DNA from: Mobula hypostoma
Taxonomy: Eukaryota
Direction of reading: 5' to 3'
Assembly (NCBI RefSeq): GCF_963921235.1
Contig: NC_086097.1
Location: forward strand, 132,558,001 to 132,622,000
Length of the DNA: 64,000 nucleotides
The notes below the pieces were generated by a model. That model was not told where the DNA came from. It was given only the letters and a program-made list of their open reading frames with translations, and did not search any database. Made by a program: the position numbers and the translations under genes. How positions within the stretch are numbered: the stretch's first letter is position 1; the number at the start of each line of letters is the position of its first letter. Shown here piece after piece: positions 1 to 61,720 of this stretch.

Positions 1-472
1 GTCTATTGTCTGTTGATCCCTTCTTTGCAGAAGTGGGCCACAGCAGGAGTGATTGATAAGTTCGTGGCCCAGGGTAGAAAGAGGTGACTTATTAACTTCA
101 AACCTTCTGCATTATCACTCAAAGAGTTAAACTGCACGTGCATGTAACAAGAGTGTCTTGGACCTCCAGGTGGTCCACAGCAGGGGTGATTTATAAGTTT
201 GTGGCCTAAGGTAGAAGGAGCTGAGTTATACAGCTCTTGTTACATGCACGTGCAGTTGAACTCTTTCAGTGAAAATGCAGAACGTTTGAAGTTAATAACT
301 CATCTCCTTCTACCCTAGGCCATGAACTTATCAATCACCCCTGCTGTGGACCACTTCTGGAGGTCCAAGACGCCAACTTCTACAAAGAGGGGATCCGTAT
401 GCTCCACGACCGCTGGACTAAGTGTGTAAATGTAGGAAAAATAAATGTGCCAGGTTTTCTAAAATTGATTCC

Positions 473-7047: not shown

Positions 7048-8149
7048 TGTCACAGTCCCGACCGTTAATTCCCCATTGTCTCCTAATTCCCTTTGATGGC
7101 GGCACACCTGGTTCTCATCAAGATCTGCAGCATAAAAACGTCGGCTTTGCATCCCCTTGTTGCCAGTTCGTTGTTTTAGCCAGTGTGGTGATTAACACTC
7201 CCGGCCGCTTAGGATTATGAATTCTAAGTTTTTCTTCAGTACCGAGGTTTACCTGTGTAACTCTGTCTCTCCGTATCAAGATCGCTTTCATTTTTCATTT
7301 GTTCATTTCTTTTTTCATTTTTGCGAGATCTGAGTCTGTACTCATTGGTGATGGGAGGAGATTTTAATTGTTGTTTAGATCCAGCCTTAGATTGTTCATC
7401 TTCTAATCTAGTGATACCAAATAAATCAGCTTTGTTTATTAAATCTTTTCTATTGAAATGTGGTATTGTTGATGATTAGCATTTTTTCATCCAGTAGACA
7501 GGGAATATTCGTTTTTCTCTCATGTCCATCATATATATTCCAGGATTGATTACTTTTTTATTGATAGCCAAATGATTCCATTAGTTCGATCCTGTGAATA
7601 TAAAGAGATTGTTGTCTCAGATCATGCTCCTGTGCTCTTATCTTAAAATCTCCCTGGTCTTCTTCAAACAAACAGGTTTCAGCATTTTAATCAAACTTAT
7701 CTGGTAAAGATTTTTTAAAGTTTATGGAGAGACAAATTACTCTTTCTTTTGAAGAGAATACATTAGAGGAGACTTCTAGTCTTATCAGATGGGATGCCTT
7801 TAAGGCGTATACTAGAGGACAAATTATTTCTTATACTGGAAGAAAAGGATTCTAGGATTTACTTCAGTACTGAGATTACCTGTGTAACTCTGTCTCTCCG
7901 TGTCAAGATAAGTATTCTAAGTTTTACTTCAGTACTAAGGTTTACCTGTGTCTCTCTGTGTCAAGAAAAGTATTGTCTCCGGCTTGCCTTTCTATGCTCC
8001 GTGTCAAGATAAGTTCTGCCTGCCTCCTGCTTTCCTTTTCACCCTCCTGTTTGCCGTTCAGTTCCAGCCAATCTCACACCCTTGTCTGCATCCTAACTCA
8101 ATCTCCGTGCCAGTGTCTTACATTTGGGTTCTCCCCGTTCCTTGCAAAA
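7048..8149 (+). repeat. 5' LTR, containing an L1 insert and three ~60-bp internal repeats
   Basis: Starts TGTCAC; 8044-8149 matches 12051-12157; unit ATTCTAAGTTTTACTTCAGTAC...GTCAAGA at ~7221, ~7851, ~7914. Confidence 0.8.
7300..7840 (+). mobile_element. L1/Tx1-type ORF2 endonuclease fragment lying inside the 5' LTR
   Basis: Translates GGDFNCCLDPALD, YSFFSHVHHIYSRIDYF, SDHAPV and WDAFKAYTRGQIISY, with stops and frameshifts. Confidence 0.8.
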
Positions 8150-8165
8150 GAACGATCTGGCCATC

Positions 8166-9201
8166 TTGGACCCAGCAGATACAAATACCCTTCAACAAGC
8201 CCTCGCCAGCCAAGGTTTTCTACTGGGACAGCACGACCAACTCCTCCGGGAGGTCATGGAGAACCTTCATTCCCTGTCTGCTCACATCGCACAGATCAGT
8301 AATCAGGTAGACCGTGTCTCCACTCATTTCACTCAACCCACTCCTGGAACCCTGTCTAACCTGCCCAGACAGCCTGTAGTGGCAATCCCCCATGCCTCAC
8401 CAACACCTCCGCCCAGAGAGCCTCACGTACCTGAGCCTCTCCTACACTGGAGACCTGGGGAATTACCGGGCCTTCCTCCTTCAGTGCTCCCTGGTGTTTG
8501 AACAGTGGTCGTCAATTTACTCCACGGATAAGTCAAAGATTGCTTATATCATGGGGTTGTTACAGTGAAGTGTATTAGATTGGGCCACAGCAGTTTGGGA
8601 TAACCAATCAGATATCTGCTCCTCTTTCGCCACTTTTATCACAGAAATGAGAAAAATCTTTGAACACCCCGTCCATGGTGAAGACGCCGCCAAGTGTCTA
8701 CTCATTCTCTGCCAGGGATCACGCAGTCTTGCTGAATATTCCGTGGAGTTTCGGATGTTAGTGGCTGGCTTGGGGCGGAACGATGAGTCACTCCAGGGCG
8801 TTTTTCAGAATGGACTCAGCGACATGGTGAAAGACGAGTTAGTGGCAAGAGACAACAAAGACAGCCTGGATTCCTTGATCTCCTTAGCCACCTGGTTGGA
8901 CAATCACCTCCGAGAACACCATAGAGAAAGAACAGGTTGTCCACCACCTTTGGCCACTTCTCAGGACTCATTTCTGCCTTCCGCCAGAACAAGCCTCTCT
9001 CCTCCTCCTGCTCCGAGATTAGCTCCCAGCCCGGCTGTTTCCACCGCCCTGGGAGAGGAACCCATGCAGCTGGGACAGAACTGCCTTTCTCCCACTGAAC
9101 AACTCTGGAGATTGAGAGCGGGTGAGTGTTTATATTGTGGCCAATCCAGCCACTTCTTTGCCACCTGTCCCCTTCAGCCAAAAGAGAAGGCTCACCAGTA
9201 G
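8166..9201 (+). pseudogene. Gypsy gag (frameshifted, stops)
   Basis: (M)DPAD start, QGSRSLAEYSVEF, EEPMQLG and zinc knuckle CLYCGQSSHFFATC. Confidence 0.85.
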
Positions 9202-12047
9202 CAAGAGGGACCCTGGTGAACCAAACAACATTCCCATCTGTCCCTCGACCCCTGATGCAGCTTCAAGCCACTTTGTGTTACAACCAACAGTCCTTGCCAC
9301 TGTTAGCACTAGTGGACTCTGGCGCTGAGGGAAACTTTTTGGATGAAGACTTAGCTTTCTGGGCCAGAACTCCTCGTGAGCCATTGTGTACCCCCCTGGA
9401 AGTCCGGGTACTGGACGGTAGACTCCTGGCCCGAGTTACACACTGCACACCACCCCTGTAGACTCCTGGCCCGAGTTACACACTGCACACCACCCCTGTC
9501 TCTCTTTCTCTCTGGAAGCCATCGGGAACAGGTATGATTCAATTTAATTTCCTCTTCTCAAGCCCCTATAGTTCTTGGTTATCCCTGGTTAAGCCGTCAT
9601 AATCCCCACATCGACTGGTCCACTGGGAAGATGGTCAGCTGGAGTTCGTTCTGCCATTCTACTTGTCTGCAATCAGCCCTTTCCACAGTGGAGGTCACCG
9701 TGACCTCGCCCGCCTCTGAACCCCCTGACTTGTCCAAAGTTCCTGTAGAGTATCATGATCTGGGAGAAGTGTTTAGCAAGCAACGGGCCCTTTCTCTGCC
9801 TCCACATCACCGTTACAATTGCACAATTGACCTTCTCCCCGGAGCCTCTCTACCCACCAGTTGGCTGTACAACCTGTCCCGACCAGAAAGAGGAACAATG
9901 GAGGCTTGCCTAAATGACTCTCTCATGGCTGGCATTATCCAACCCTCAGCTTCCCCTGTAGGCGTAGGTTTCTTCTTTGTGGGGAAGAAAGGTGGCTCAC
10001 TGTGTCCCTGCATTGACTACCGTAGCCTGAACAATATCACCATAAAGAATAAGTATCCCCTGCCCCTTATCGATTCAGCATTCAAGCCCCTTCACGGAGC
10101 CACAATTTTCTCTAAGTTGGACCTGCGGAGTGCCTATCACCTGGTCAGGATAAGTGAGGGGGATGAATGGAAAACAGCTTTTAACACCCCCCTCAGTCAT
10201 TTCGAATATCTGGTCATGCCGTTCAGTCTCACCAATGCCCCTGCCGTCTTCCAAGCCCTGGTAAACGATGTCCGTAGGGACTTTATTAATCATTTTGTTT
10301 TTGTTTATTTGGACGTCATCTTAATCTTCTCTAGTAATCTTCAGGAACATACCCGCCACGTCCATCAGGTCCTTCAGAGGCTTTTGGAGAACAAGCTATT
10401 TGTTAAGGCAGAGAAGTGCGAGTTCCATGCCTGTTCCGTCAGTTTCCTGGGGTACATCATTGAGAGCGGGCAAGTGAGGGCGGATCCTGAAAAGACCCGG
10501 GCAGTGGCGGAGTGGCCAAAACCCACAACGCTCAAACAACTCCAGCGATTTCTGGGATTCGCAAACTTCTACCGTCGCTTCATTAGGAACTACAGTCAGG
10601 TGGTAGCACCCCTTACTCAGCTCACCTCTCTTGTGACCCCTTTTCACTGGACCCCCGAAGCAGACTCAGTCTTCTCGGAGCTGAAGAAGCGTTTCACCTC
10701 CGCTCCCATCCTGGTCCAAACCGACCCCTCTCGCCAATTCATTGTGGAAGTCGATGCCTCTGACTCTGGGGTGGGAGCGGTCCACTCCCAACACTCCATC
10801 CCAGACCTAAAGCTCCATCCCTGCACCTTCTTCTCTCGCCGTCTATCCCCCACTGAATAGAACAACGACGTTGGGAACTGGGAGTTGCTGGCCGTCAAAC
10901 TCACCTTGGAGGAGTGGAGGCACTGGCTGGAGGGAGCAGAACATTCATTCATTGTCTGGATGGACCATAGGAATCTGGTATACATCCAAACAACTAAATG
11001 CCTTAACTCCCGACAAGCCCATTGGGCACTATTTTTTGGCCGTTTCAAATTCACCCTCACCTATCATCCTGGTTCCAAGAATGGGAAGCCAGATGCTCTC
11101 TCTTGTCAATACGTCTCCAAGAAGGGTCCTTCCAACCCTGCCCTCACTTGGGAGATCGAATCCATAGTCAAAGAGGCCCAACGGACTCAACCAGATCCAG
11201 GCAATGGACCTTCCAATCACCTCTTCGTGCCTGACTCTGTCCAGTCTTAGATTCTCCAGTGGGGGAAAACTTCCCGTTTTGCCTGCCATCCTGGAATCGA
11301 TCAAACTCTGTCCCTTCTGAAGTGACATTTCTGGTGGCCCACCATAGATGCTGACACTCGCTCCTTCGTCTCTGCCTGTTCTGTGTGTGCCCGCGGAAAA
11401 GCCTCCCATTGGCCACCTGCTGAGCTGCTTCGTCCCCTACCTGTCTCTGGCCGCCCTTGGCCCTACATAGCTCTCTATTTCATCACTAGTCTACCCCTTT
11501 CACATGGTAACACAACTGTACTCACCGTTGTGGACCGTTTTTCCAAAGCTATGCACTTCATAGCCCTTCCCAAACTCCCTACAGCCCATGAAACAGCCGA
11601 CCTCCTTGTCCAACACACCTTCCACCTTCATGGAATTCCCTCTGACATTGTTTCTGACCGGGGCCCCCATTTCATCTCCCAAGTCTGGAAATCCTTCTGT
11701 CACACCCTCAGAGCTTCAGTAAGTCTGTCTTCTGGTTTCCATCCATAGACTAACGGTCAAACGGAGCGAGCAAATCAGTATTTAGAAGCAGCACTGCGCT
11801 GCATATCCACCAACAACCCGTCATCCTGGAGCACCCATCTCACTTGGGTGGAGTACGCCCACAACTCCCTGGTCAGCACCGCCACTGGAATGTCTCCTTT
11901 TGAATGCTCCCTTGGTTATCAACCTCCTCCGTTTCCTGCTCATGAAGACAACATCGCTGTGCTTTCAGTTCAGGCCCATCTCCGCCGGTGCCGCAAGGTC
12001 TGGAAGGACACATGCACGGACCTGCTCCGCTCCGCTGACCGTAACCG
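9180..12047 (+). pseudogene. Gypsy pol (PR-RT-RH-IN), disabled
   Basis: DSGA protease; RT 9631-10860 with YLDD mutated to YLDV; integrase HHCC (CHPG..CSVC), SDRGPHF and TNGQTER; several stops. Confidence 0.9.
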
Positions 12048-17965: not shown

Positions 17966-18001
17966 AGTTGACGTTTCAGGCCGAGACCCTTCGTCAGGAC
18001 T
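17966..18001 (-). ncRNA. Minimal type-I hammerhead ribozyme motif (stem I has one mismatch)
   Basis: AGTC CTGACGA AGGGTCTCGGCCT GAAA CG TC AACT on the minus strand. Confidence 0.65.
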
Positions 18002-19683: not shown

Positions 19684-19719
19684 AGTCCTGACGAAGGGTC
19701 TCGGCCTGAAATGTCGACT
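19684..19719 (+). ncRNA. Minimal type-I hammerhead ribozyme motif (stem III C>T)
   Basis: AGTC CTGACGA AGGGTCTCGGCCT GAAA TG TC GACT. Confidence 0.65.
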
Positions 19720-23350: not shown

Positions 23351-26300
23351 AGACCATAAGACCATAAGATATAGGAGCAGAAGTAGGCTATTCGGCCCAG
23401 CGAGTCTGCTCTGCCATTCAATCATGGGCTAATCCTATTCTTCCAGTCATCCCCACTCCCCTGCCTTCACCCCATACCCTTTGATGCCCTGGCTAATCAA
23501 GAACCTATTTATCTCTGCCTTAAATACACCCAATGACTTGGACTCCACAGCTGCTTATGGCGACAAATTCCACAGATTTACCACCCTCTGACTAAAGTAA
23601 TTTCTCCACATGTCTGTTCTAAATGGACGTTCTTCAATCCTGAAGTTGTGCGCTCTTGTCCTAGAATCCCCTACCATGGGAAGTAACTTTGCCATATCTA
23701 ATCCGTTCAGGCCTTTTAACATTTGGAATGTTTCTATAAGATCCCCCCTCATTCTCCTTAACTCCAGGGAATACAGCCCAAGAGCTGCCAGATGTCCCTC
23801 ATACGGTAACCTTCTCATTCCTGGAATCATTCTTGTGAATCTTCTCTAAACCCTCTCCAATGTCAGTATATCTTTCTAAAATAAGGAGCCCAAAACTGCA
23901 CACAATACTCCGTGTGGTCTCACAAATGTCTTATAGAGCCTCAACATCACCTCTGCCCTTATATTCTATACCTCTAGAAATGAATGCCAACATCTCATTC
24001 GCCTTCTTCACAACTGACTCAACCTGAAGGTTAACCTTTAGGATATCTTGCACAAGGACTCCCAAGTCCCTTTGCATCTCTGCATTTTGAATTCTCTCCC
24101 CATCTAAATAATAGTCTGCCTGTTTATTTCTTCCACCTAAGTGCATGACCATGCACTTTCCAACATTGTATTTCATTTGCCACTTCTTTGCCCATTCCCC
24201 TGAACTATCTAAGTCTCTCTGCAGGCTCTCTGTTTCCTCAACACTACCCACTCCTTCACCTGTCTTTGTACCATCATCAAATTTAGCCACAAATCCATTA
24301 ATACTATAGTCCAAATCATTGACATACATTGTAAAAAGCAGTGGTCCCAACACCGATCCCTATGGAACTCCACTGGTAACCAACAGCCAGCCAGAATAGG
24401 ATCCCTTTATTCCAACTCTGTTTTCTGCCGAACAGCCAATGCTCCACCCATGCTAATAAATTCCGTGTAATTCCATGGGGTCTTAACTTGCTAAGCAGCC
24501 TCGTGCGGCACCTTGTCAAAGGCCTTCTGAAAATCTAAGTACATCACACTTACTACATCTCCTTTGTCTACCCTGCTTGTAATTTCCTTAAAGAATTGCA
24601 GTAGGTTTGTCAGACAGGATTTTCCTTTCAAGAAACCATGCTGGCTTTGGACTATCTTGTCATGTGCCTCTAGTTATTCCATAATCTCATCTCCAACAAT
24701 TGATTCCAACAACATCCCAACCACTGATGTCAGGCTAACAGGTCTATAGTTCCCTTTCTGCTGCCTTCCACCCTTCTTAAATAACGGAGTAACATTTCTA
24801 ATTTTCCAGTCATCCGGTACAATGCCAGAATCTATCGATTCTTGAAAAATCATTGTAAGTGCCTCCCCAATCTCTCCAGCTACTTTCTTCAGAACCCAAG
24901 GGTGCATTCCATCAGGTCCAGGAGATTTATCCACCCTCAGACCATTAAGCTTCCGGAGCACCTTCTCAGTCGTAACTTTCACTGCACAAACTTCACTTCC
25001 CCGACACTTTTGAGTGTCCGGTATACTGCAGACGTCTTCCACTGTGAAGACTGATGCAAAATACACATTCAGTTCCTCTGCCATCTCTGCATCTCTCATT
25101 ACAATATCTCCAGCGTCAATTTGTATTGGTCCTATATCTACCCTCGACTCTTTTTTACCTTTTTTATACTTAAAGCTTTTAGTATCTTCTTTGATATTAA
25201 TCACCAGCTTCTTTTCATAATTCATCTTTTCCTTCCTAATGAACTTCTTAGTTTCATTCTGCAAGTTTTTAAAAGCTTCCCAATCCTCTGTCTTCCCACT
25301 AGCTCTGGCTTCCTTGTATGTCCTCTCTTTTGCTTTTACTTTGGCTCTGACTTCACTTGTCAGCCACAGTCGTGTCCTTCTTCCCTTTGAAAATTTCTTC
25401 TTCTTTGGGATATATCTGTCTTGCACTTCCCTCATTTTTCGCAGAAACTCCAGCCATTGCTGCTCTGCTGTCTCTCCTGCAAATGTCCCTTTCCAATCAA
25501 CTTTGGCCAGTTTCCCCCTCATGCCATTGTAATTTCCTTTATTACACTGAAATACTGACACATTGGATTTTATTTTTTCTCTCTCAAATTTCAATGTGAA
25601 CTTGATCATATTGTGATCTCTGTTCCCTAAGGGTTCCTTAACCTTAAGCTCTCTTATCACCTCCAGATCATTGCACAACACCCAGTCCAGCATAGCCAAT
25701 TCCCTAGTGGGCTCAACAACAAGCTGTTCTAAAAATCCATCCCTTAGACATTCTACAAATTCTCTCTCTTGATATCCAGTACAGAACTGGTTTTCCCAAT
25801 CTATTTTCATGTTAAAATCCCCAACGATTATCATGACATTGCATTTCCGACACACCTTTTCTATCTCCTGCTGTAATTTGTAATCCACATTTTGACTGCT
25901 GTTTGGAGGCCTGTATACAACTGACATTAGGGTCCTTTTACCTTTGCCATTTCTTAACTCAACTTATAGAGACTCTACACCTTCTAATGCTATGTCATCT
26001 CTTTCCAATGATTTAATATTATTTCTTATACACAGAGCCACACCACCCCCTCTGCCTACTAACCTATATTTCCGAAACATCGTATATCCTTGGACTTTCA
26101 GCTCCCAATGGCAGCCATCCTTTAGCCAAGTTTTAGAGATGGCCACAACATCATATTTGCCAATCTGTAGCTGAATTTCAAGATCGTCCATTTTATTCCT
26201 TATGTTGCATGCATTCAAATATAACACTTTTAGTCCAGTATTTGTTGCTTTTTGTTTTAACTGCACCATGCCTCTATTGCCCTGTAACTCATCCCACTGG

Positions 26301-27030
26301 CTGTGATCAAGCCTCATCTCCTGCCTGTTCTTTCTATAATCTCTGTTGCACACCATCTTTGATTTATTTCTGTTTTTCCCTTCCTCAACCCTATCACTCC
26401 GGTTCCCATCCCCCTGCCAAATTAGTTTAAACCCTCCCTAACAGCTCTATTAAATGTGCCCGCTAGGATATTGGGTTCAGGTGTAAACCATCCTTTTTTT
26501 ACAGGTCATACCTCCTCCAGAAGAGGCCCCAGTGATCCAGGAATCTGAAGCCCTGCCCGCTACACCAGTCTCTCAGTCACACATTAATACACCTGATCAT
26601 GTTATTCTTGCACTCGCTAGCACGTGGCACAGGCAGCAATCCTGAGATTACTACCCTGGAGGTCCTGTTTTTCAGCTTCCTACCTAACTCCCTGAATTCT
26701 CTCTTCAGGACCTCCTCCCTTTTTCTACCTATATCATTGGTAGCAATGTATACCTTCAGAATACACTGCACCCGATCTGAGACATCCCACACCCAGGCAA
26801 CTGGGAGGCAACACACCAGGTGGGTATCTCTATCAGGCTGACAGAACCTCCCGTCTGTTGCCGTCACTATGGAATCCCCTGTGACTACCACATTCTTCAT
26901 CTTCCTCTTTCCCTTCTGCACCATGGAACCAGGCTCAGTGTCAGAGACCCAATAGCCGTGGTCGTCCTCTGTCGGGTCATCCCCCTTCATCAGCAACCAA
27001 AATGAGATAACCATCTCGTGATAACTGAAA
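23351..27030 (-). mobile_element. Near full-length CR1 LINE (ORF1 SGNH-esterase part + ORF2), disabled
   Basis: ORF1 26577-27095 (VTGDSIV, TNDIG, VVISGLLP); APE 25964-26356; ORF 24674-25927 (GDFN, KSPGPDG, NYRPVSL); RT 23931-24353; (TCTTATGG)n tail. Confidence 0.93.
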
Positions 27031-28239
27031 ACGAGGTAATGGAGTGGTGGGTGCCTTGAATATGCTGCCTGGGATTGTGGTACAGGCAGAAACAATAGAG
27101 ACTTTTAAGAGACATTTGGGTAGATATATCAATGTGAGGAAAATTAAAGGATATGGAAATTGTAGAGGCAGGAGAGATTATTTTAGTTCACCATTTAATT
27201 ACTAATTTAATTTGTTTGGTACAATATTCTGGGCTGAAGGGCCTTTTCCTATGTTGTTCTATGCTCTATGAGAGTTGCTAAGACTCAGAACCCCTGAGAA
27301 AAAGAGAATACCTGCCTTGTGGTCTTTTTAACTGGTGATATTTTTAATATTTAGGGATCCCTAGATCTGGATCATGGAGTTGAATCTTTAAGTATGTTCA
27401 ATAGCTTGTGAGCCGCAGGGGAGTCTGGTGTTATGGGCTAAAACCGTGATGTTTTGTATAACAGTATAGACTTGAGTGGTCGTATGGACAACCTTAGTTC
27501 ACCAAATTACTGTGTTGAAGTGGTTTTTCTGGGGATATTCTATATAGTCTGTGTACTATTGCTTCCTTATACTAAAAGTTTAAAGCTACACCACAATGAA
27601 GCATGAATCACACCTGCCAATGGCCTTCCTACATGAAGTTAGTTTACATTCGATGATTACAGATTCTCAGAAGGTGTGAGAACATTGTCACCTTGCCAAA
27701 GACCACCCCTCTCCATAAAGGGAAATGAACACCCAGCTGGTTAACAAGGTCAAGTGCTGGAAGATAGGGTCTTCACTGGGTGTCAATCCTTTCTGCAAAG
27801 AAGCAGCTGAAGGAATTGACATGTGTTTTGTAATCACACCAGCTGGCTTGGTTAGGATCTCCTGAGCTTGTTGTGAAGTGATTGTTTGTTCCATAGCCCA
27901 AAGGCAACATTTTGCAGCTAATTCCAGCCCTGTTGTACTTGCTTTCATGTAAAAGAAACAAGTCACATTAATTAAAATGAAATCGAGTTTCACAAAACTG
28001 AAACAGGAATTGATCTTGACAGCTTACCAATGAGTTCAGTTTTTGAGCCATCTTTCCAAGAGAGATGGGGATGGGTTTAATATACCTCCCCCAAATTTAA
28101 CAGTCAATCCTTCCCCCAGACATTTTAGAAATGGAAATGACTGGAAGTTTAGATAGTTAAAATAACTTGAGTTACTTGCTGACTGACTGCATGCCCTTCC
28201 TGTTCTGTTAACCTGCTCTTTAGCACAGGAGAGAAAAAC

Positions 28240-28410: not shown

Positions 28411-29106
28411 CATCAGGAAGCAGGGTGGAATGTCTCTATATGTATCAATGGTGCTGAGGCAGAGATGGTTGAGAACTTCAAGCTCCGAGATATTAACATC
28501 ACCAATTCACTTGTGCTAGTCCAGCATGTAAACATCATGGCCAAGAAATTATACCAGCACCTCTACTTTCTCAGAAGGCTAACAAAATGTGACATGTCCC
28601 TATTGACCCTCATCAATTTTTAGAGAGGCATCATAGACAGAATCCTAGCAGATGCATCACAGCATGGTATGATAACTGCTCAGTCAAGGACCACAAGAAA
28701 TTGTGGAGAGCTGTAGGCACAGTTCAGTCGATCAGAAAAATCAGCTTTCCCACTATGGGCTCTGTTTACACTTCAAAATAATCAGATTCCACCCATTCCA
28801 AATATTCTCTCTTTGCCCTCTCTCATCAGGTTGAACATACAAATGCCTGAGAACATGCATCACCAAGTTCAAGGACACATTTTATTCTGCTGTTATAACA
28901 CTATTGAATGAATTTGTATGAAAAAGATGATTACTTGATCTTATAATCTACATCATCATGGCCTTGCAACTTATTGTCTGCCTGCGTTGTACTTTCTATG
29001 TAACTGTAACACTGCGTTTTTCATTCTAGAATTGTCTTTCCCTTGTGCTACATCAATGTGTGAAATAATCTGTATGGATGGCATAGAAAACTGTTTTCTA
29101 CAGTGT
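28410..29106 (+). mobile_element. Decayed Rex1-like LINE 3' part (last ~30 bp resume at 32651)
   Basis: INGAEAEMVENFKL and QHLYFLRRL remnants; 3' UTR ...TCGGTACATGTGA continues after the Penelope TSD. Confidence 0.7.
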
Positions 29107-29204
29107 AAACACAAGGAATTCTGAAGATGCTGGAAATTCAAGCAACACACATCAAAGTTGCTGGTGAACGCAGCGGGCCAGGCAGCATCTATAGGAAGAG
29201 GCAC

Positions 29205-29240
29205 AGTCAACGTTTCGGGCCGAGACCCTTCGTCAGGACT
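29205..29240 (-). ncRNA. Minimal type-I hammerhead ribozyme motif
   Basis: AGTC CTGACGA AGGGTCTCGGCCC GAAA CG TT GACT on the minus strand. Confidence 0.7.
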
Positions 29241-32200
29241 AACTGAAAAAAGAGCTAGTAAGACATTTGAGAGGGGGAGGGGAGATCCAAAATGATAGGA
29301 GAAGACAGGAGGGGAAGGGATGGAGCCAAGAGCCGGACAGGTGATTGGCAAAAGGTATATGAGAGGATCATGGGACAGAATGCCCAGGGAGAAAGAAAAG
29401 GGAGGGGGGGGGAAACCCAAAGGTTGGGCAAGGGGTATAGTGAGAGGGACAGAGGGAGAAAAATGAGAGAGAGAAAAAGAATGTGTGTATATAAATACAT
29501 AACAGATGGAGTACAAGGGGGAGGTGGGGCATTAGCGGAAGTTTGAGAAGTCAGTTTTCATGCCATCGGGTTGGAGGCTAACCAGATGGAATATAAGGTG
29601 TTGTTCCTCCAACCTGAGTGTGGCTTCATCTTTACAGTAGAGGAGGCCGTGGATAGACATGTCAGAATGGGAATGGGACGTGGAATTAAAATGTGTGGCC
29701 ACTGGGAGACCCTGCTTTCTCTGGCAGACAAAGCGTAGGTGTTCAGTGAAACGATTTCCTAGTCTGCGTCGGATCTCGCTGACATATAGAAGGCCACATT
29801 GGGAGCAACGGACGCAGTATATCACCCCAGCCGACTCACAGGTGAAGTGTCACCTCACCTGGAAGGACTGTCTGGGGCCCTGAATGGTGGTAAGGGAGGA
29901 AGTGTAAGGGCATGTGTAGCACTTGTTCCGCTTACAAGGATAAGTGCCAGGAGGGAGATCAGTGGGGAGGTATGGGGGGGACGAATGGACAAGAGAATCG
30001 CGTAGGGAGCGATCCCTGCGGAAAACAGAGAGGGGGGGAGGGAAAGATGTGCTTAGTGGTGGGATCCTGTTGGAGGTGGCGGAAGTTATGGAGAATGATA
30101 TGTTGGACCCGGAGGCTGGTGGGTGGCGGGAGGATGGAGTGAGAGCAGATGTGCGTGAAATGGGGGAGATGTGTTTGAGAGCAGAGTTGATGGTGGAGGA
30201 AGGGAAGCCCCTTTCTTTAAAAAAGGAGGACATCTCCCTCGTCCTGGAATGAAAAGCCTCATCCTGAGACCAGATGGGCGGAGACGGAGGAATTGTGAGA
30301 AGGGGATAGCATTTTTGCTAGAGACAGGGTGAGAAGAGGAATAGTCCAGATAGCTGTGAGAGTCAGTAGGCTTACAGTAGACATCAGTAGATAAGCTGTC
30401 TCCAGAGACAGAGACAGAAAGATCTAGAAAGGGTAAGGAGGTGTTGGAAATGGACCAGGTAAACTTGAGGGCAGGATGAAAGTTGGAGGCAAAGTTAATG
30501 AAGTCAACGAGCTCAGCATGCGTGCAGGAAGCAGCACCAATGCAGTCGTCGATGTAGCGAAGGAAAAGTGGGGGACAGATACCAGAATAGGTTTGGAACA
30601 TAGATTGTTCCACAAAGCCAACAAAAAGGCAGGCATAGCTAGGACCCATACGGGTGCCCATAGCTACACCTTTAGTTTGGAGGAAGTGGGAGGAGCCAAA
30701 GGAGAAATTATTAAGAGTAAGGACTAATTCCGCCAGACGGATGAGAGTGGTGGTAGAGGGGAACTGGTTAGGTCTGGAATCCAAAAAGAAGCGGAGAGCT
30801 TGGAGACCTTCCTGATGGGGGATGGAAGTATATAGGGACTGGACATCCATGGTGAAAATAAAGTGGTGGGGGCCAGGGAACTTAAAATCATCGAAAAGTT
30901 TAAGAGCGTGAGAAGTGTCACGAACATAGGTAGGAAGGGATTGAACAAGGGGGGATAAAACCGTGTTGAGGTATGCAGAAACGAGTTCGGTGGGGCAGGA
31001 GCAAGCTGAGACAATAGGTCAGCCAGGACAGGCAGGTTTGTGGATCTTGGGTAGGAGATAGAAACGGGAAGTGTGAGGTGTGGGAACTATAAGGTTGGTA
31101 GCAGTGGATGGGAGACCCCCAGAGCTGATAAAGTCGGTGATGGTGTGGGAGACAATGGCCTGGTGCTCCTTAGTGGGGTCACGATCGAGGGGCTGCTTCC
31201 TGCACACATGCTGAGCTCGTTGACTTCATTAACTTTGCCTCCAACTTTCACCCCCCTCAAGTTTACCTGGTCCATTTCCAATTCCTCCCTACCCTTTCTA
31301 GATCTTTCTGTCTCTACCTCTGGAGACAGCTTATCTACTGATGTCTACTATAAGCCTACTGACTCTCACAGCTATCTGGACTATTTCTCTTCTCACCCTG
31401 TCTCTTGCAAAAATGCCATCCCCTTCTCACAATTCCTCCGTCTCCGCCGCATCTGCTCTCAGGATGAGTCTTTTCATTCCAGGACGAGGGAGATGTCCTC
31501 CTTTTTAAAAGAAAGGGGCTTCCCTTTCTCCACCATCAACTCTGCTCTCAAACGCATCTCCCCCATTTCACGCACATCTGCTCTCACTCCATCCTCCTGC
31601 CACCCCACTAGCCTCCGGGTCCAACATATAATTCTCCGTAACTTCTGCCACTTCCAACGGGATCCCACCGCTAAGCACATCTTTCCCTCCCCCCCCCGCC
31701 CTGCTTTCCGCAGGGATCGCTCCCTACACGATTCCCTTGTCCATTCGTCCCCCCCCATACCTCCCCACTGATCTCCCTCCTGGCACTTATCCTTGTAAGC
31801 AGAACAAGTGCTACACATGCCCTTACACTTCCTCCCTTACCACCATTCAGGGCCCCAGACAGTCCTTCCGGGTGAGGAGACACTTCACGTGCGAGTCGGC
31901 TGGGGTGATATACTGCGTCCGTTGCTCCCGATGTGGCCTTCTATATATTGGCGAGACCCGACGCAGACTGGGAGACCGCTTTGCTGAACACCTACGCTCT
32001 GTCCGCCAGAGAAAGCAGGGTCTCCCAGTGGCCACACATTTTAATTCCACATCCCATTCCCATTCTGATATGTCTATCCACAGCCTCCTCTGCTGTAAAG
32101 ATGAAGCCACACTCAGGTTGGAGGAACAACACCTTATATTCCGTCTGGGTAGCCTCCAACCTGATGGCATGAACATTGACTTCTCTAACTTCCGCTAATG

Positions 32201-32409
32201 CCCCACCTCCCCCTCGTACTCCATCCGTTAGTTATTTATATACACACATTCTTTTTCTCTCTCTCGTTTTTCTCCCTCTGTCCCTCTCACTATACCCCTT
32301 GCCCATCCTCTGGGTTTTCCCCCCTCCCCCTTTTCTTTCTCCCTGGGCCTCCTGTCCCATGATCCTCTCATATACCTTTGCCAATCACCTGTCCAGCTCT
32401 TAGACTCCA

Positions 32410-32531
32410 TCCCTCCCCCTCCCCCTCCCCCTCCCCCTCCCCCTCCCCCTCCCCCTCCCCCTCCCCCTCCCCCTCCCCCTCCCCCTCCCCCTCCCCCTCC
32501 CCCTCCCCCTCCCCCTCCCCCTCCCCCTCCC
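32410..32531 (+). repeat. (CCCCCT)n microsatellite, ~20 units
   Basis: Perfect hexamer run within the Penelope 3' UTR. Confidence 0.95.
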
Positions 32532-32559
32532 AAATCTCTTACTAGCTCTTCTTTCAGTT

Positions 32560-32595
32560 AGTCCTGAAGAAGGGTCTCGGCCCGAAACGTCGACT
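32560..32595 (+). ncRNA. Minimal type-I hammerhead ribozyme motif
   Basis: AGTC CTGAAGA AGGGTCTCGGCCC GAAA CG TC GACT. Confidence 0.75.
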
Positions 32596-33319
32596 GTGCC
32601 TCTTCCTATAGATGCTGCCTGGCCTGCTGCATTCACCTTTTCTACAGTGTCTCGGTACATGTGAAAACAGTAATTTACAAAGGCCTCAGGGGTGGGGCTG
32701 GGATGATTTCATCACCTGGAAGGTGATATTCTAACTGGCCAATATCAAGATTGGTACCGACCCACCATGAAAACAGTCATTGTGTAGCTGCTGCTAGTGT
32801 GATTAAGATCTTGTTCTTGTCATCACAGCGTAGTCAACACCCCCTAGCCTTTGGTCAACTTAGTCGCCCTTTTAAGTAGCTCCATCTGAAGGATGAAGTT
32901 CTATTGCCTGGCAACAGCTGACATGTTTTAGATGCAGAGCCTCGTGCCTCATTACATCTGACCATTTTGCCCGTCCTGTCTATATACTAGCTTTAGTTGT
33001 CTAGATGTGTCACTTGCCATCTTTTCTGTCCCTGCACCTCCTCCCTAATTACATCTCTGCAATACTCTCTGAGGGAGTGTTCTCCATTCCTTAAGAAATT
33101 CCTGCTGGGTTTATTGAATTTTTGTGCGTTAAGTTACGTTCCAAGGTCCAATCCCCACCTAGCTGGATCCACTTGGATCCGGTGAAGAACTGAGACCACC
33201 CTAGGTAGCATGTATTTTTGGGCAGTAGCATAACAGGGCAGAAGAAAGAATGTGCCTCATATTGTGAGGTATGAGATTACAGGAATCCCAGATTTATTGT
33301 GACATCCATTGAACACTGG

Positions 33320-48675: not shown

Positions 48676-49635
48676 TCTGGTAATGCCCCCTCCCCCTTCT
48701 CTATTCCCCATCCCCTTTTCCCTATCTCACCTTTTCTCCTTGCCTGCCATCGCCTCCCTCGGGTGCTCCTCTCCTTTTTTCTTTCTCCCATGGTCCTCTG
48801 TCCTCTTCCATTAGATTCCCCCTTCTCCAGCCCTGTATCTCTTCCACCAATCAACTTCCCAGCTCTTTACTTCAACCCTCCCCCCTCCCAATTTCACATA
48901 TCACCTTCTGTTTCTTCCTCCCCACTCTTCTAACTCTGTCTCCTCATCTATTTTTCTCCAGTTCTGCTGAAGGGTTTTGGTCCGAAATGTTGACTGTACT
49001 TTTCCAGAGATACTGTTTGGCCTGCTGAGTTCCTCCAGCATTTATAGTCATAGTCATAGTCATACTTTATTGATCCCGGGGGAAACTGGTTTTTGTTACA
49101 GTTGCACCATAAATAATAAATAGTAATAAAACCATAAATAGTTAAATAGTAATATGCAAATTATGCCAGTAAATTATGAAATAAGTCCAGGACCAGCCTA
49201 TTGGCTCAGGGTGTCTGACCTTCCAAGGGAGGAGTTGTAAAGTTTGATGGCCACAGGCAGGAATTACTTCCTATGACACTCCATGTTGCATCTCGGTGGA
49301 ACATTACATTATGTAGAGGATGGGAGACATTGTCCAAGATGGCATGCAACTTAGACAGCATCCTCTTTTCAGACACCACAGTGAGAGAGTCCAGTTCCAT
49401 CCCCACAACATCACTGGCCTTACGAATGAGTTTGTTGATTCTGTTGGTGTCTGCTACCCTCAGCCTGCTGTCCCAGCACACAACAGCAAACATGATAGCA
49501 CTGGCCACCACAGACTCGTAGAACATCCTCAGCATCGTCCGGCAGATGTTAAAGGACCTCAGTCTCCTCAGGAAATAGAGACTGCTGTGTGTGTTGCTCG
49601 GATTTCCAGCACCTGCAGATTTTCTCTTGTTTGTG
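48676..49635 (+). mobile_element. Older Penelope-like terminal repeat, split by a LINE at 49044-49582
   Basis: Pyrimidine tract, decayed hammerhead at 48960-48995; module resumes GTGTGTGTTGCTCGGATTTCCAGCACCTGCAG at ~49587. Confidence 0.7.
49044..49582 (-). mobile_element. Rex1-like LINE 3' fragment
   Basis: LYFLRRLRSF..MLRMFYESVVAS; (ATGACT)n tail. Confidence 0.8.
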
Positions 49636-50355
49636 ATTGGTTAAGACCTTCGGTCCTGTATTCAGTCTTTTAGATTTTGTCCACATTTTAGATTGCAACT
49701 TATCTTGTTCACTGCAATTTTGCCTTAACAATAGCCACTCCTCACTACAAATTGCCTCTGTTTATAAACCAGCTAGCTCATCTTCACCATTATCATCCGC
49801 CTTTTCTGTAATACTTCTTGAATTAAATATAGGGAATTCAGGACATGAGTTGCAACATGTTCAACCTTTTGATTCCTAGCTTTGTCTGAGGTCTTACCAA
49901 TGCCTCCATAATTTCTCCACTAACTGTCTAGCAATCTGGTTCTCATTCCCCCGCAATACTAGTTTAAACCCCACCATGTAGCAGGAAATCTTCCTGCTAG
50001 GATATTAGTCCCCTTCCAGTTTAGGCGCAAACTGTCCCTTCAGTACAGGTTCCACTTCCCTGGAAGAGAGCCCAAGATACAAAAATCTTATGACCTCCCT
50101 CCAACACCAACTCTTTAGCCACATATTAAACTATATAATCTTTTTAGTTCTGGCCTCACTAACACGTGGCACAGGCTGCAATTCTGAGATCACAACCATG
50201 GAGGTCTTGGCCTTTAACCGCACCTAACTCCCTGAACTCCCTATGCAGAACTTTGTCATTCCTCCTACCCATGTCATTGGTAAATTCATGGACCATGACC
50301 TCTGGCTGTTCACCCTCCCAGTGCAGAATGCTGAGGACTCAATCTGAGATGCCCC

Positions 50356-52973
50356 AGGCCTTTGTCATGTTAGGCAAAGATCGTAAGATCTTACATCTAC
50401 GGACTCCAGAGCCTGCCGGCCCCGACGCTAGCAGGCATGAACTTTCAATTGCGGCGCATGCCATTGATCTCGGCGGCTCCAACACCTCAGGGCATATTCA
50501 AAACCCGGACTCCAGCAACGACCATGGACACATTCGAAATGATTACGCAACCACCAACTGCGACTCCAGCCTTGAACTCCAGGCCGGGTCTTTATGTGTT
50601 GCTGTTGTGACTCCCGTCTCCCCTTCCCCCACCACCACTCCGCAGCCCCGTCTTCCTCAGATCCCACCGTCAGCTCCTGGGCCCTCAGAGGCTCCATCTT
50701 CCTCTCACCCCAACCCTCCCCTCTCCATTGACACCCCCAGCCTCCCCCCTCCCCCCTCTGATCCCAGCTCTCATCCGTGCCGGGTCTTTACCATCCCCTC
50801 CGACCTTCAACTGTCGGAGGCAGAACGCTCTGTTCTCAGTAAGGGCCTCACCTTTGTCCCCCTTCGCCCACACCTCAGTGAGTTCCGTGTTCGCCATGAT
50901 GCGGAACTTTTCTTCTGCCGTCTCCGTCTCCGAGCCTACTTCTTCGGCAAGGACTCTTCCACCCCCACCGATGACCCCTTCTCCCGTCTTCAACCCTCCT
51001 CTTCTTCATGGACACCCTGCTCTGGTCTTCTGCCTGCTCTGGATCTCTTTATTGCCAACTGCCGACGGGACATCAACCGTCTCGACTTCACCGCATCTTG
51101 TCCCCATTCCAACCTCACTCCTTTGGAACGCTCTGCTCTCCACTCCCTCTGCACTAATCCTAACCTTATTATTAAACCCCCTGATAAGGGGGGTGCTGTT
51201 GTAGTCTGGCGTACTGACCTCTACCTTGCCGAGGCACAGCGACAACTCGCGGATACCTCCTCTTATTTACCCCTCGATCGTGACCCCACCAAGGAGCACC
51301 AGGCCATTGTCTCCCACACTATCACCGACTTTATCCGCTCAGGGGATCTCCCATCCACTGCTACCAACCTTATAGTTCCCACACCCCGCACTTCCCGTTT
51401 CTACCTCCTACCCAAGATCCACAAACCTGCCTGTCCTGGCCGACCTATTGTCTCAGCTTGCTCCTGCCCCACCGAACTCGTTTCTGCATACCTCGACACT
51501 GTTTTATCACCCCTTGTTCAATCCCTTCCGACCAATGTTCGTGACACTTCTCACGCTCTTAAACTTTTCGATGATTTTAAGTTCCCTGGCCCCCACCGCT
51601 TTATTTTCACCATGGATGTCCAGTCCTTATATACTTCCATCCCCCATCAGGAAGGTCTCAAAGCTCTACGCTTCTTTTTGGATTCCAGACCTAATCAGTT
51701 CCCCTCTACCACCACTCTGCTCCGTCTAGCGGAATTAGTCCTTACTCTTAATAATTTCTCCTTTTGCTCCTCCCATTTCCTCCAAACTAAAGGTGTAGCT
51801 ATGGGCACCCGTATGGGTCCTAGCTATGCCTGCCTTTTTGTTGGGTTTGTGGAACAATCTATGTTCCGTGCCTATTCTGGTATCTGTCCCCCACTTTTCC
51901 TTCGCTATATCGACGACTGCATTGGCGCTGCTTCCTGCACGCATGCAGAACTCGTTGACTTTATTAACTTTGCCTCCAACTTTCACCCTGCCCTCAAGTT
52001 TACCTGGTCTATTTCCGACACCTCCCTCCCCTTTCTAGATCTTTCTGTCTCTGTCTCTGGAGACAGCTTATCCACTGATATCTACTATAAGCCTACTGAC
52101 TCTCACAGCTATCTGGACTATTCCTCTTCTCACCCTGTCTCTTGCAAAAACGCCATCCCCTTCTCGCAATTCCTCCGTCTCCGCCGCATCTGCTCTCAGG
52201 ATGAAGCTTTTCATTCTAGGACGAGGGAGATGTCTTCATTTTTTAAAGAAAGGGGCTTCCCTTCCTCCACTATCAACTCTGCTCTTAAACGCATCTCCTC
52301 CATTTCACGTACATCTGCTCTCACTCCATCCTCCCACCACCCCACTAGGAATAGGGTTCCCCTGGTCCTCACCTACCACCCCACCAGCCTCCGGGTCCAA
52401 CATATTATTCTCCGTAACTTCCGCCACCTCCAACGGGATCCCACCACTAAGCACATCTTTCCCTCCCCCCCTCTCTCTGCATTCTGCAGGGATCGCTCCC
52501 TACACAACTCCCTTGTCCATTCGTCCCCCCCATCCCTCCCCACTGATCTCCCTCCTGGCACTTATCCGTGTAAGCGGAACAAGTGCTACACATGCCCTTA
52601 CACTTCCTCCCTTACCACCATTCAGGGCCCCAAACAGTCCTTCCAGGTGAGGCATCACTTCACCTGTGAGTCGACTGGGGTGATATACTGCGTCCGGTGC
52701 TCCCGATGTGGCCTTTTATATATTGGTGAGACCCGACGCAGACTGGGAGACCGCTTTGCTGAACATCTACGCTCTGTCCGCCAGAGAAAGCAGGATCTCC
52801 CAGTGGCCACACATTTTAATTCCACATCCCATTCCCATTCTGACATGTCTATCCACGGCCTCCTCTACTGTAAAGATGAAGCCACACTCAGGTTGGAGGA
52901 ACAACACCTTATATTCCATCTGGGTAGCCTCCAACCTGATGGCATGAACATTGACTTCTCTAACTTCCGCTAG
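50356..52973 (+). CDS. Penelope-like RT + GIY-YIG endonuclease polyprotein (open ~870 codons; true start uncertain)
   Basis: DKGG, FYLLPKIHK, GRPIVS, MDVQSLYTSIP, GVAMG, FLRYIDD, LPFLD, CKRNKCYTC linker, GVIYCVRCSRCGLLYIGET, RFAEH and GMN. Confidence 0.9.
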
Positions 52974-53265
52974 GCCCCACCTCCCCCTCGTACCCCAGCT
53001 GTTACTCCTTTTTATGCACACATTCTTTCTCTCACTCTCCTTTTTCTCCCTCTGTCCCTCTGAATATACCTCTTGCCCATCCTCTGGGTCACCCCCCCCC
53101 GTCTTTCTCCCTAGGCCTCCTGTCCCATGATCCTCTCGTATCCCCTTTTGCCTATCACCTGTCCAGCTCTCGGCTCTATCCCTCCCCCTCCTGTCTTCTC
53201 CTATCATTTTGCATCTCCCCCTCCCCCTCCAGCTTTCAAATCCCTTACTCACTCTTCCTTCAGTT

Positions 53266-53301
53266 AGTCCTGACGAAGGGTCTCGGCCTGAAACGTCGAC
53301 T
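53266..53301 (+). ncRNA. Minimal type-I hammerhead ribozyme motif
   Basis: AGTC CTGACGA AGGGTCTCGGCCT GAAA CG TC GACT. Confidence 0.75.
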
Positions 53302-53669
53302 GCGCCTCTTCCTATAGATGCTGCCTGGCCTGCTGCGTTCACCAGCAACTTTGATGTATGTTGCTTGAATTTCCAGCATCTGCAGAATTCCTGTTGTATA
53401 CCATCGGGGAATCTCATTCTCGCCTACAGAACCTCCTATCCATTCCTCTAACTAATGAACTCCCTCAATTTGACTTGAAAGCTGTAAATTTTGATGAATA
53501 AGTTATTCTGCATCACATTCATTACCAACCATAAAGGAAAGAGAAGTCCTCACTTGCCTGTGTTATTTGATTGGGGCTAAGACAGATCTAAACATCCCTA
53601 GACAGGTCTTTGATGACTCAAGAGGTTACAGATGCTGGATCCTTGATTTCTTCTCTTGCTGACCCCAGT

Positions 53670-59559: not shown

Positions 59560-60720
59560 TTTCTCTTTTTTTAAAGAAAGGGGCTTCCCTTCCTCCACTA
59601 TCAACTCTGCTCTTAAACGCATCTCCCCCATTTCACGTACATCTGCTCTCACTTCATCCTCCCGCCACCCCACTAGGAATACGGTTCCCCTGGACCTCAC
59701 CTACCACCCCACCAGCCTCCGGGTCCAACATATTATTCTGCATGACTTCCGCCACCTCCAATGGGATTCCACCACTAAGCACATCTTTCCCTCCCCCCCC
59801 CCTGCATTCAGCAGGGATCGCTCCCTACGCAACTCCCTTGTCCATTCGTCCCCCCCATCCCTCCCCACTGATCTCCCTCCTGGCACTTATCCGTGTAAGC
59901 GGAACAAATGCTACACATGCCCTTACACTTCCTCCCTTGCCACCATTCAGGGCCCCAAACAGTCCTTCCAGGTGAGGCAACACTTCACCTGTGAGTCAGC
60001 TAGGGTGATATACTGCGTCCGGTGTGGCCTTTTATATATTGGTGAGACCCAACGCAGACTGGGAGACCGCTTTACTGAACACCTACGCTCTGTCTGCCAG
60101 AGAAAGCAGGATCTCCCAGTGGCCACACATTTTAATTCCACATCCCATTCCCATTCTGACATGTCTATCCACGGCCTCCTCTACTGTAAAGATGAAGCCA
60201 CACTCAGGTTGAAGGAACAACACCTTATATTCTGTCTGGGTAGCCTCCAACCTGATGGCATGAACATCGACTTCTCTAACTTCCGCTAATGCCCCACCTC
60301 CCCCTCGTATCCCATCTGTTACTTATTTTTATACACACATTCTTTCTCTCACTCTCCTTTTTCTCCCTCTGTCCCTCTGAATATACCCCTTGCCCATCCT
60401 CTGGGTCCCCCCCTCCCCTCCTTGTCTTTCTTCCCGGACCTCCTGTCCCATGATCCTCTCGTATCCCTTTTGCCTATCACCTGTCCAGCTCTTGGCTCCA
60501 TCCCTCCCCCTCCTGTCTTCTCCTATTATTTCGGATCTCCCCCTCCCCCTCCCACTTTCAAATCCCTTACTCACTCTTCCTTCAGTTAGTCCTGACGAAG
60601 GGTCTCGGCCTGAAACGTCGACTGCACCTCTTCCTAGAGATGCTGCCTGGCCTGCTGCGTTCACCAGCAACGTTGATGTGTGTTGCTTGAATTTCCAGCA
60701 TCTGCAGAATTCCTGTTGTT
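59560..60720 (+). mobile_element. 5'-truncated Penelope-like copy
   Basis: GIY-YIG plus 3' UTR; 12-bp TSD TATGGACT(A/G)GGA at 59548-59559 and 60721-60732. Confidence 0.92.
60588..60623 (+). ncRNA. Minimal type-I hammerhead ribozyme motif
   Basis: AGTC CTGACGA AGGGTCTCGGCCT GAAA CG TC GACT. Confidence 0.75.
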
Positions 60721-61497
60721 TATGGACTGGGACAAGTTGTTTTCTGACAAATGTGTACTTGGTATGTGGGAGGCTTTCAAAAATGAATTTCTGAGACTAC
60801 AGAGTTTGTACAGTATGCTCCTGTCAGAATAAAAGACAAAGATATCACGTTCAGGGAACCTTGGTTTCCAAGAGATTTTGAGGTCCTGGTGCAGAAAAAG
60901 AAGGAGCTGCATAGCAGGTATGGGCAGGAAGGAGCAAATGAAGTATTCGAGAAGTATAAGAAGTGTAAGTGAACAGTTAAAAAGGGAAATCGGGAGGGCT
61001 AAAAGAAGGCATGAGGTTGCTCTGATAGTCAAGGTGAAGGAGAATCCCAAGGGCTTCTACAGAGCAGCAGTGAGGTCATAGACCATATATAGATTACAGA
61101 TGAGGAGATGTTTGCTGTGTTGGGGAAAATTAAGGTGGATGCCAGAGGATTGAAGTATAGCTAATGAAGCTAATGATCCATTGCTTAAGAAAAACCCTAA
61201 GCATAAGCCAGGAAATTATAGGCCAGTGAGCCTGACATCTGTAGTGGGTAAGTTACTGGAAGGTATTCTAATGGACGGAACTGCTTAGGGATAGTCAATA
61301 TGACTCTGTGTGAGATAGATCATGTCTAACCAACCAGATTTGTTTGAGAAAATTACTAGGAAAGTTAACGAAAGCAAGGCTGTGGATGTTGTATACATGG
61401 ACTTTAGCATGGCTTTTAACAAGATCACGCAGGGGAGGTTGGTCAAGAAGTTTCAGTCGTGTGGCATTCAAGAAGAAATAGTAAATTGGATTAGACA

Positions 61498-61720
61498 ACA
61501 CACATCAAAGTTGCTGGTGAGTGCAGCAGGCCAGGCAGCATCTCCAGGAAGAGGTACAGTCGACCTTTCAGGCCGAGACCCTTCGTCAGGAGGGTCTCGG
61601 CCTGAAAGGTCAACTGTACCTCTTCCTAGACATGCTGCCTGGCCTGCTGCGTTCACCAGCAACTTTGATGTGTGTTGCTTGAATTTCCAGCATCTGCAGA
61701 ATTCCTGTTGTTTGTGTTTT
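61498..61720. mobile_element. Mini fold-back Penelope insertion (terminal module only)
   Basis: ~86-bp inverted arms around an 8-nt loop; 16-bp TSD TAAATTGGATTAGACA at 61482-61497 and 61721-61736. Confidence 0.9.

What the first reader, a model, noticed from the sequence alone, without database searches (positions are those of the whole stretch)
53266..53301. Hammerhead ribozyme motif in every Penelope 3' terminal repeat
Seen: AGTC-CTGANGA-(A)GGGTCTCGGCCY-GAAA-CG-TH-GACT recurs at 17966(-), 19684, 29205(-), 32560, 53266 and 60588. AGTC/GACT forms stem I, CUGANGA and GAAA are the catalytic core, the N position varies (C/A), and stem III is reduced to the palindrome ACGT. Known: Penelope-like elements carry minimal type-I hammerheads whose palindromic stem III is thought to need dimerisation. 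Inference: this family processes its RNA by self-cleavage after GUC, probably in tandem or trans dimers. The ORF track cannot show this.
Basis: partly seen in the sequence, partly recalled or inferred. Interest (0 to 1): 0.75.

Follow-up and report, generated by a model that had tools for sequence, protein, structure and literature searches.

The report
Shark/ray Penelope retrotransposon's minimal hammerhead
This is a real copy of the tiny self-cutting RNA motif that Penelope-type jumping genes are already known to carry in their end repeats, here in tens of thousands of copies in a likely shark or ray genome; nearly all copies run straight across the predicted cut site, so it likely cuts only weakly or with a helper.

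Summary
The motif is real: a minimal type I hammerhead at 53266-53301 in the pseudo-LTR of a Penelope-like element with a Neptune-type linker (RT + GIY-YIG; best named relative a bamboo-shark protein, 72%). The genome holds 45,476 exact copies (control 0). Full-length elements are hammerhead-ORF-hammerhead, 3.5 kb apart, so it is also a 5' element, 139 nt before the likely start codon. Relatives with 30-59% identical ORFs keep core and a palindromic stem III while the stems change. This class is published (Cervera and De la Pena 2014), and this scan has reported it in other shark/ray genomes. Corrections: the six copies are four insertions; one has a broken stem I; about a dozen older ends in the window are decayed, so 'every' overstates. 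There is no footprint of cutting: 85% of 105,362 downstream matches continue across the site, and 1 of 59 sampled copies (ambiguous) starts there. Copies end 67 or 102 nt past the site, one of each in 23 of 23 inverted insertions, and 18 of 59 start at the motif's 5' edge. That fits the anole element, whose hammerhead is protein-assisted and whose uncut RNA is the template. Ordinary; cleavage untested.

The parts
53266..53301 (+). Minimal type I hammerhead motif: stem I AGTC/GACT, core CUGACGA, extra A, stem II GGGU/GCCU with loop CUCG, GAAA, palindrome ACGU, predicted cut after C 53297
50360..52973 (+). 5'-truncated Penelope-like ORF (DKG 51183, YIDD 51906, CX4CXXC linker 52569, GIY-YIG from 52680). 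The frame listed from 50163 begins in unrelated flank; full-length copies have 1016 codons from the likely ATG
52974..53397 (+). 3' UTR / pseudo-LTR: stop codon 292 nt before the motif; copy ends about 100 nt past the predicted cut
53364..53397 (+). PLE 'tail' between the two 3'-end classes (+67 and +102 from the cut), likely the two reverse-transcription start sites
   Evidence: PMC11167929
17953..19817 (.). One inverted insertion with two motifs: 17966-18001 (-), stem I broken, and 19684-19719 (+), imperfect palindrome; 17-bp target duplication
29106..32637 (.). One inverted insertion with two motifs: 29205-29240 (-), GUU site, and 32560-32595 (+), N7=A; 13-bp target duplication at 29094-29106 and 32638-32650
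59567..60722 (+). 5'-truncated copy with intact motif at 60588-60623
61496..61713 (.).

Best explanation
The motif is the minimal hammerhead of a young, very abundant Penelope-like retrotransposon, and it is likely a weak, conditional ribozyme that cuts only when paired with a second copy or bound by the element's protein, likely at a step other than making the ends of the RNA that is copied. Shown: in full-length elements it lies in both pseudo-LTRs, 3.5 kb apart, so one copy sits 139 nt before the likely start codon and the other 292 nt after the stop. Inserted copies end 67 or 102 nt downstream of the site and read across it. Inferred: the element's protein nicks the target and starts reverse transcription internally at these two sites, one per target strand in inverted insertions, on RNA that is uncut at the motif. 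Alone the motif is predicted to fold into an inactive rod in which GACG of the core pairs with CGUC. Selection keeps the motif only in master lineages. The roughly 90,000 young genomic copies are mostly solitary passengers that decay at CpG sites.
For: Anatomy equals the published min-HHR: no stem III beyond a palindrome, extra base between 9 and 10.1. 10 of 20 picked loci have two motifs 3511-3515 nt apart; 8 of 20 have an intact 1043-codon frame. 22 descriptor hits in 19 of 80 loci of related PLE ORFs (30-59% identity), 20 on the ORF strand, against 0-1 in 30 shuffles. Their stems are different sequences, and all 22 have a self-complementary insert that the descriptor did not ask for. 89,242 of 105,362 downstream matches (85%) continue across the site. 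49 of 59 sampled young segments cross it and 1 begins within 3 nt of it; 0 of 36 ORF-linked 5' ends do. 3' ends: 27 at +60..74 and 27 at +95..110 of 59; 23 of 23 inverted insertions with a target duplication have one short and one long end. Monomer MFE -11.7 kcal/mol sequesters the core, against -6.8 for the stem I+II fold. Anole PLE: no cleavage without protein, catalytic mutants still insert, no RNA ends at the site.
Against: No cleavage assay and no RNA ends were available: all runs were contigs, none on record as RNA. Reading across the site fits equally well with efficient cutting followed by re-ligation into circles. Within this genome the stems are nearly invariant: no compensatory change was seen, only G-C/G-U at 10.1-11.1. 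The youngest subfamily has U11.1 (42 of 66 young copies) and an older one has A6C (20 of 159; 297 exact genome matches), so amplification did not need the textbook core. The modelled active-type dimer (-11.1) is far less stable than the dimer MFE (-31.7), though such models do not score a hammerhead core.
Confidence: 0.65

Rival explanations
1. The two motifs of a tandem transcript cut efficiently as a dimer and the 3.5-kb unit is joined into a circle. Reverse transcription from +67/+102 round the circle would restore the motif at the joint and give more-than-unit copies.
For: Full-length copies have upstream pseudo-LTRs of variable length, up to 970 nt or more before the anchor. Two loci hold ORF starts 3515-3516 nt apart. 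The two repeats of one locus share subfamily states. The model is proposed in PMC4209133 and reviewed in PMC6765202.
Against: Linear cut RNA should leave some copies starting at +1: 1 ambiguous case of 59 and 0 of 36. In vitro activity of min-HHR dimers was low. In the anole element uncut RNA was the dominant substrate. Comparing 5' and 3' repeats did not separate circle from linear template.
Confidence: 0.2
2. In this lineage the motif no longer needs to cut. It is kept as a structural or sequence signal (protein binding, transcript start region, or a pause for the reverse transcriptase), or simply hitch-hikes with the conserved tail.
For: Subfamilies with A6C or U11.1 amplified. 5' ends pile up at -44..-19, the motif's 5' edge, not at the cut. 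Naiad PLEs thrive without hammerheads, and Craig et al. raise that hammerheads may parasitise PLEs. Anole catalytic mutants still insert in vitro.
Against: The catalytic core and a cleavable NUH triplet are kept across distant relatives whose stems have changed. The majority sequence of the 36-nt motif differs between young and old families only at N7, while the flanks differ at many sites. A natural A6C hammerhead still cleaves (abstract of PMC7151607).
Confidence: 0.13
3. The match to a hammerhead is chance, amplified by the repeat's copy number.
For: The loose core pattern alone is only modestly above chance in the window (6 against mean 1.49; 2 of 100 shuffles reached 6). Rfam found no hammerhead. 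Repeat copies are not independent.
Against: About 15 distinct motifs with unrelated stems at the same kind of place in related elements, all palindromic at stem III; a published class with the same idiosyncrasies.
Confidence: 0.02

Closest known systems
Minimal type I hammerheads (min-HHR) in pLTRs of metazoan Penelope-like elements (Cervera and De la Pena 2014, PMC4209133)
   Same: Type I topology, 4-bp stem I, no stem III beyond a palindromic 15.2-16.2, extra base between 9 and 10.1, place in both pLTRs, most copies solitary, opposite-strand pairs nearby.
   Different: Stem II is 4 bp rather than the 7-8 bp of the Schistosoma motifs. The young subfamily has G10.1-U11.1. Copy number (45,476 exact) exceeds the 4,000-9,000 given for coelacanth and Xenopus, though counted differently. 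No shark or ray name was found in the parts read or in supplement file 2; file 1 could not be searched.
PAc, Poseidon element of Anolis carolinensis (Frangieh et al. 2024, PMC11167929)
   Same: Hammerhead near the ORF start; genomic copies end at two sites downstream of it, with the tail between them; copies made from uncut RNA.
   Different: In PAc the start codon lies inside the hammerhead and RT starts inside the ORF; here the likely ATG is 139 nt past the cut and both end sites lie before it. This element has a Neptune-type linker.
Neptune clade of EN+ PLEs (Craig et al. 2021, PMC8557442)
   Same: C-terminal GIY-YIG, DKG motif, CX2-5CXXC linker between RT and endonuclease, tandem and inverted insertions, 30-40-bp tail at one end.
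   Different: No tree with reference clades was built; the Nematis clade shares the linker.
Non-LTR retrozymes of animals (bioRxiv 10.64898/2026.07.22.740005)
   Same: PLE-derived hammerhead repeats, reported there in one cartilaginous fish among the vertebrates sampled.
   Different: Retrozymes are short head-to-tail arrays. The copies here are dispersed truncated ends, and no array was seen in 1.6 Mb sampled; one 513-nt same-strand pair appeared.

Membership tests
Hammerhead ribozyme (type I, minimal) | Core C3 U4 G5 A6 N7 G8 A9 and G12 A13 A14 A15.1, U16.1, H17 | tested here: met
   53270-53297
Hammerhead ribozyme (type I, minimal) | Stems I and II, supported by compensatory change | tested here: met
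   Paired in the copy. All four Watson-Crick pair types occur at the first stem I pair across related PLE loci (the descriptor asked for pairing, shuffles gave 0-1 hits). No compensatory change within this genome.
PLE min-HHR | Palindromic 15.2-16.2 and an extra base between 9 and 10.1 | tested here: met
   ACGU and extra A; 22 of 22 palindromic and 20 of 22 with the extra base in relatives
PLE min-HHR | Conserved G10.1-C11.1 pair | tested here: inconclusive
   G-U in this copy and in 42 of 66 young copies, G-C in 20: paired but not canonical
Hammerhead ribozyme (type I, minimal) | Self-cleavage 3' of H17 | not testable with these tools
   No raw RNA reads were offered; genomic ends show no footprint
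Rfam hammerhead families | Match to a curated covariance model | tested here: not met
   No hammerhead family at E<=1 in the window
EN+ Penelope-like element | Single ORF with RT, DKG motif and C-terminal GIY-YIG | tested here: met
   934 homologues
EN+ Penelope-like element | Partial tandems forming pLTRs, inverted 5' copies, 30-40-bp tail at one end | tested here: met
Neptune clade | CX2-5CXXC linker between RT and endonuclease | tested here: met
   CKRNKCYTC at 52569; criterion
Neptune clade | RT phylogeny groups with Neptune rather than Nematis or Poseidon | not tested
   No named reference PLE proteins were at hand
Non-LTR retrozyme | Short head-to-tail tandem units without ORF | tested here: not met
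   Window and 1.6-Mb sample show dispersed single or inverted copies

The most novel reading that the evidence does not exclude
The copies are a genome-wide record that this hammerhead does not define the RNA's ends, and that its 5' edge, not its cut site, is the main stop of reverse transcription. About a third of the copies that get that far stop within 26 nt there. Either the transcript starts just before the motif, so priming in the first tail yields 100-135-nt dead-end minis, or the folded motif stalls the enzyme and its own stem I complementarity seeds the inversions. Each inverted insertion uses the +67 site on one target strand and the +102 site on the other, a strict pairing that the in vitro anole assay did not see.
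Probability: 0.4. Interest if true: 0.4.

Novelty: new member of a known kind. Interest (0 to 1): 0.2.

Why it matters
The motif class is published, so finding it is not news. What hammerheads do for Penelope-like elements is still open (PMC8557442 calls it unclear). This family is young, has intact full-length copies and about 10^5 recent insertions, which makes it a good natural data set: the ends say the copied RNA is uncut at the site, locate two priming sites, and show a stop at the motif's 5' edge. That turns the open question into specific tests (RNA 5' ends, circles, protein-dependent cleavage).

Tried and rejected
Rfam scan: no hammerhead; the mir-5681/mir-3926 hits at 61548-61625 are below gathering score and come from the inverted mini-insertion. 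Single-strand folding z-scores: uninformative. Sequencing runs: no RNA holder listed, all Logan contigs, no place where molecules begin or end; not used as evidence on expression or cleavage. 5' versus 3' pLTR differences as a test of circular versus linear template: no systematic difference, inconclusive. Slower decay of core than of stems or loop within the genome (young 14/587 against 40/920 and 5/132; old 192/1402 against 407/2162 and 60/310): not used, because the core is A-rich and the copies were aligned to a core-bearing reference. Lunse, Weinberg and Breaker (PMC5785218) is not held; I saw only its title and a review's paraphrase. Paper searches for a shark or ray report found none on this motif, but bioRxiv supplements were not seen and most subscription papers are not in the library. 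No earlier notes near this place. A tree against reference PLE clades was not attempted.

Full report
Observation. The window reads AGTC CTGACGA A GGGT CTCG GCCT GAAA CG TC GACT at 53266-53301: stem I, core, an extra A, a 4-bp stem II, GAAA, the palindrome ACGT and a GUC site with the predicted cut at 53297/53298. All six listed places have AGTCCTGANGA. A descriptor demanding core and stems I and II finds five of them and nothing in 100 shuffles of the window. 17966(-) fails because its stem I begins with a mismatch; 19684 has an imperfect palindrome and 29205 a GUU site. The six are four insertions, since 17966/19684 and 29205/32560 are the two arms of inverted insertions with 17-bp and 13-bp target duplications. 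A profile of the downstream tail finds 18 ends in the window; 5 carry a descriptor-grade motif and the rest are broken or decayed. Rfam has no hammerhead match.

Host element. The motif lies 292 nt after the stop of a frame with RT (E 5.9e-5) and GIY-YIG (E 9e-4) matches, both under Pfam's cut-offs. The element begins at 50360 and is 5'-truncated. A full-length ORF region finds 934 homologues; the best named one is from Chiloscyllium punctatum, 72% identical, so the 3.48-Gb genome is likely a cartilaginous fish. The protein has DKG, YIDD and a CX4CXXC linker, the mark of the Neptune and Nematis clades in passages of PMC8557442. Of 20 loci that I picked among the 30, favouring those with upstream repeats, 10 have two motifs in the same direction 3511-3515 nt apart and 8 have an intact 1043-codon frame. 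The likely ATG is 139 nt past the cut (an earlier ATG is polymorphic). So the repeat is a pseudo-LTR, and the motif is as much a 5'-leader element as a 3' one.

Abundance and decay. A 34-nt pattern has 45,476 exact matches in the genome, control 0. In 120 evenly spaced 10-kb stretches the descriptor gave 30 hits; ten shuffles gave 2, then nine times 0. In 160 stretches (1.6 Mb) the tail profile gave 275 hits (reversed control 0); 273 had enough flank, and 225 of these had a recognisable motif region. Of 66 young copies 52 have an intact core and 33 also intact stems; of 159 old copies 12 and 1. CpG positions, including G8 and G12, decay like any CpG. The majority sequence of the motif is the same in young and old families except N7, while flanks differ at many sites; within the genome I saw no compensatory change, only G-C/G-U at 10.1-11.1. 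An older subfamily carries A6C (20 of 159; 297 exact genome matches); the abstract of PMC7151607 describes A6C as a natural, still active variant.

Comparative test. 80 metagenome loci with related ORFs (30-59% identity) gave 22 descriptor hits in 19 loci, 20 on the ORF strand, against 0-1 in 30 shuffles. About 15 are distinct. Their stems I and II are unrelated in sequence. All 22 have a self-complementary insert at stem III (CG, TA, GC, AT, CCGG, TAGCTA), which the descriptor did not ask for, and 20 have the extra base before stem II. Many of the 61 loci without a hit may not reach the untranslated regions; I did not sort this out.

Does it cut? Positions are counted from the predicted cut. 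Among 59 young segments in the 1.6-Mb sample (at least 88% identity, 30 nt or more, reaching past +10, contig-edge hits dropped), 3' ends fall at +60..74 (27), +95..110 (27), shorter (3), or run on into the ORF (2). In the unfiltered list for the first 1.2 Mb and the window no segment ends within 3 nt of the cut. 49 of 59 cross the site; 1 starts at +1, at an inversion joint where GACT belongs to both arms. Of 36 ORF-linked 5' ends none lies within 3 nt of the cut. Genome-wide, 105,362 matches of +2..+27 become 89,242 when extended to -7 (85%); much of the loss is expected from mutation at nine more positions. Instead 18 of 59 5' ends lie at -44..-19, a per-base stop rate about 5 and 8 times that of the flanking intervals (inverted arms are not independent). 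Patterns for -22..+12 and -45..-14 give 86,900 and 59,900 matches (not nested, so only a rough check). All 23 inverted insertions with a target duplication have one short and one long 3' end (p 2e-7 against random pairing; sample, window and the 20 picked loci pooled). Folding predicts that the lone motif pairs its own core (GACG with CGUC; -11.7 against -6.8 kcal/mol), and in 200 nt of context stems I and II are not predicted at all.

Mechanism. These ends match PMC11167929 (passages and main text read): internal start of reverse transcription at two sites bounding the tail, a hammerhead that cleaves only with the protein, mutants that still insert, and no RNA ends at the site. That paper saw no strand difference in start site in vitro, whereas the inverted insertions here pair the two sites strictly. 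I therefore read the motif as a weak, conditional ribozyme (0.65). Cutting and circularisation (0.2) also explains read-through and the long upstream repeats, and could not be excluded. A non-catalytic or hitch-hiking role (0.13) is allowed by the A6C and U11.1 subfamilies. ORF-linked copies that reach far upstream need a longer or circular template, or a template jump.

Known or new. PMC4209133 (parts 1-2 of 4 read, supplement file 2 searched, file 1 not searchable) describes this class in fish, coelacanth, frog and reptile PLEs, with low dimer activity. A 2026 preprint reports PLE-derived hammerhead repeats in one cartilaginous fish (passages only, supplements not seen). Searches showed no paper on this shark/ray family. 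This scan has 93 earlier findings with these words in at least 24 genomes. Verdict: a new member of a known kind, interest 0.2.

Noticed in passing
window 8569-10860 (+): Gag and RT/RNase H frames of an LTR retrotransposon (Retrotrans_gag, RVT_1, RT_RNaseH), with a 107-nt repeat pair at 8041 and 12049 that may be its LTRs.
   Followed up: no
window 469-1563 (+): RT frame followed by a Pfam ALKBH8_N match, likely the end of a LINE.
   Followed up: no
window 24674-27104 (-), 49928-50282: LINE remnant with an endonuclease domain; the Penelope copy at 50360 sits next to a related remnant. No clear target duplication was seen for this copy.
   Followed up: partly
window 61548-61625: Sub-threshold Rfam microRNA hits are the hairpin of the inverted mini-insertion; such insertions could pass as microRNA precursors in annotation.
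   Followed up: yes
window 48960-49040; L070, L106, L162, L236 and others: Older subfamily with core variant A6C (CUGCNGA): 20 of 159 old copies, 297 exact genome matches.
   Followed up: partly
window near 5230 and 56610; L135, L238, L078: A further old family reads CUGAUGCA before stem II, a different core variant.
   Followed up: no
G000:C12:173179059-173182729 and G000:C2:157232205-157235876: ORF starts 3515-3516 nt apart: likely full head-to-tail dimers. G000:C50:94984021-94984689 has two ORF starts only 513 nt apart.
   Followed up: no
L168:5612-5815, L082, L117, L219, L105: Inversion joints often fall inside the motif; in L168 the joint is the GACT shared by the two strands of stem I.
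   Followed up: partly
window 53330-53377: Predicted stem-loop covering the +67 end site (z -1.2, not significant), perhaps the counterpart of the anole RT-start stem-loop.
   Followed up: partly
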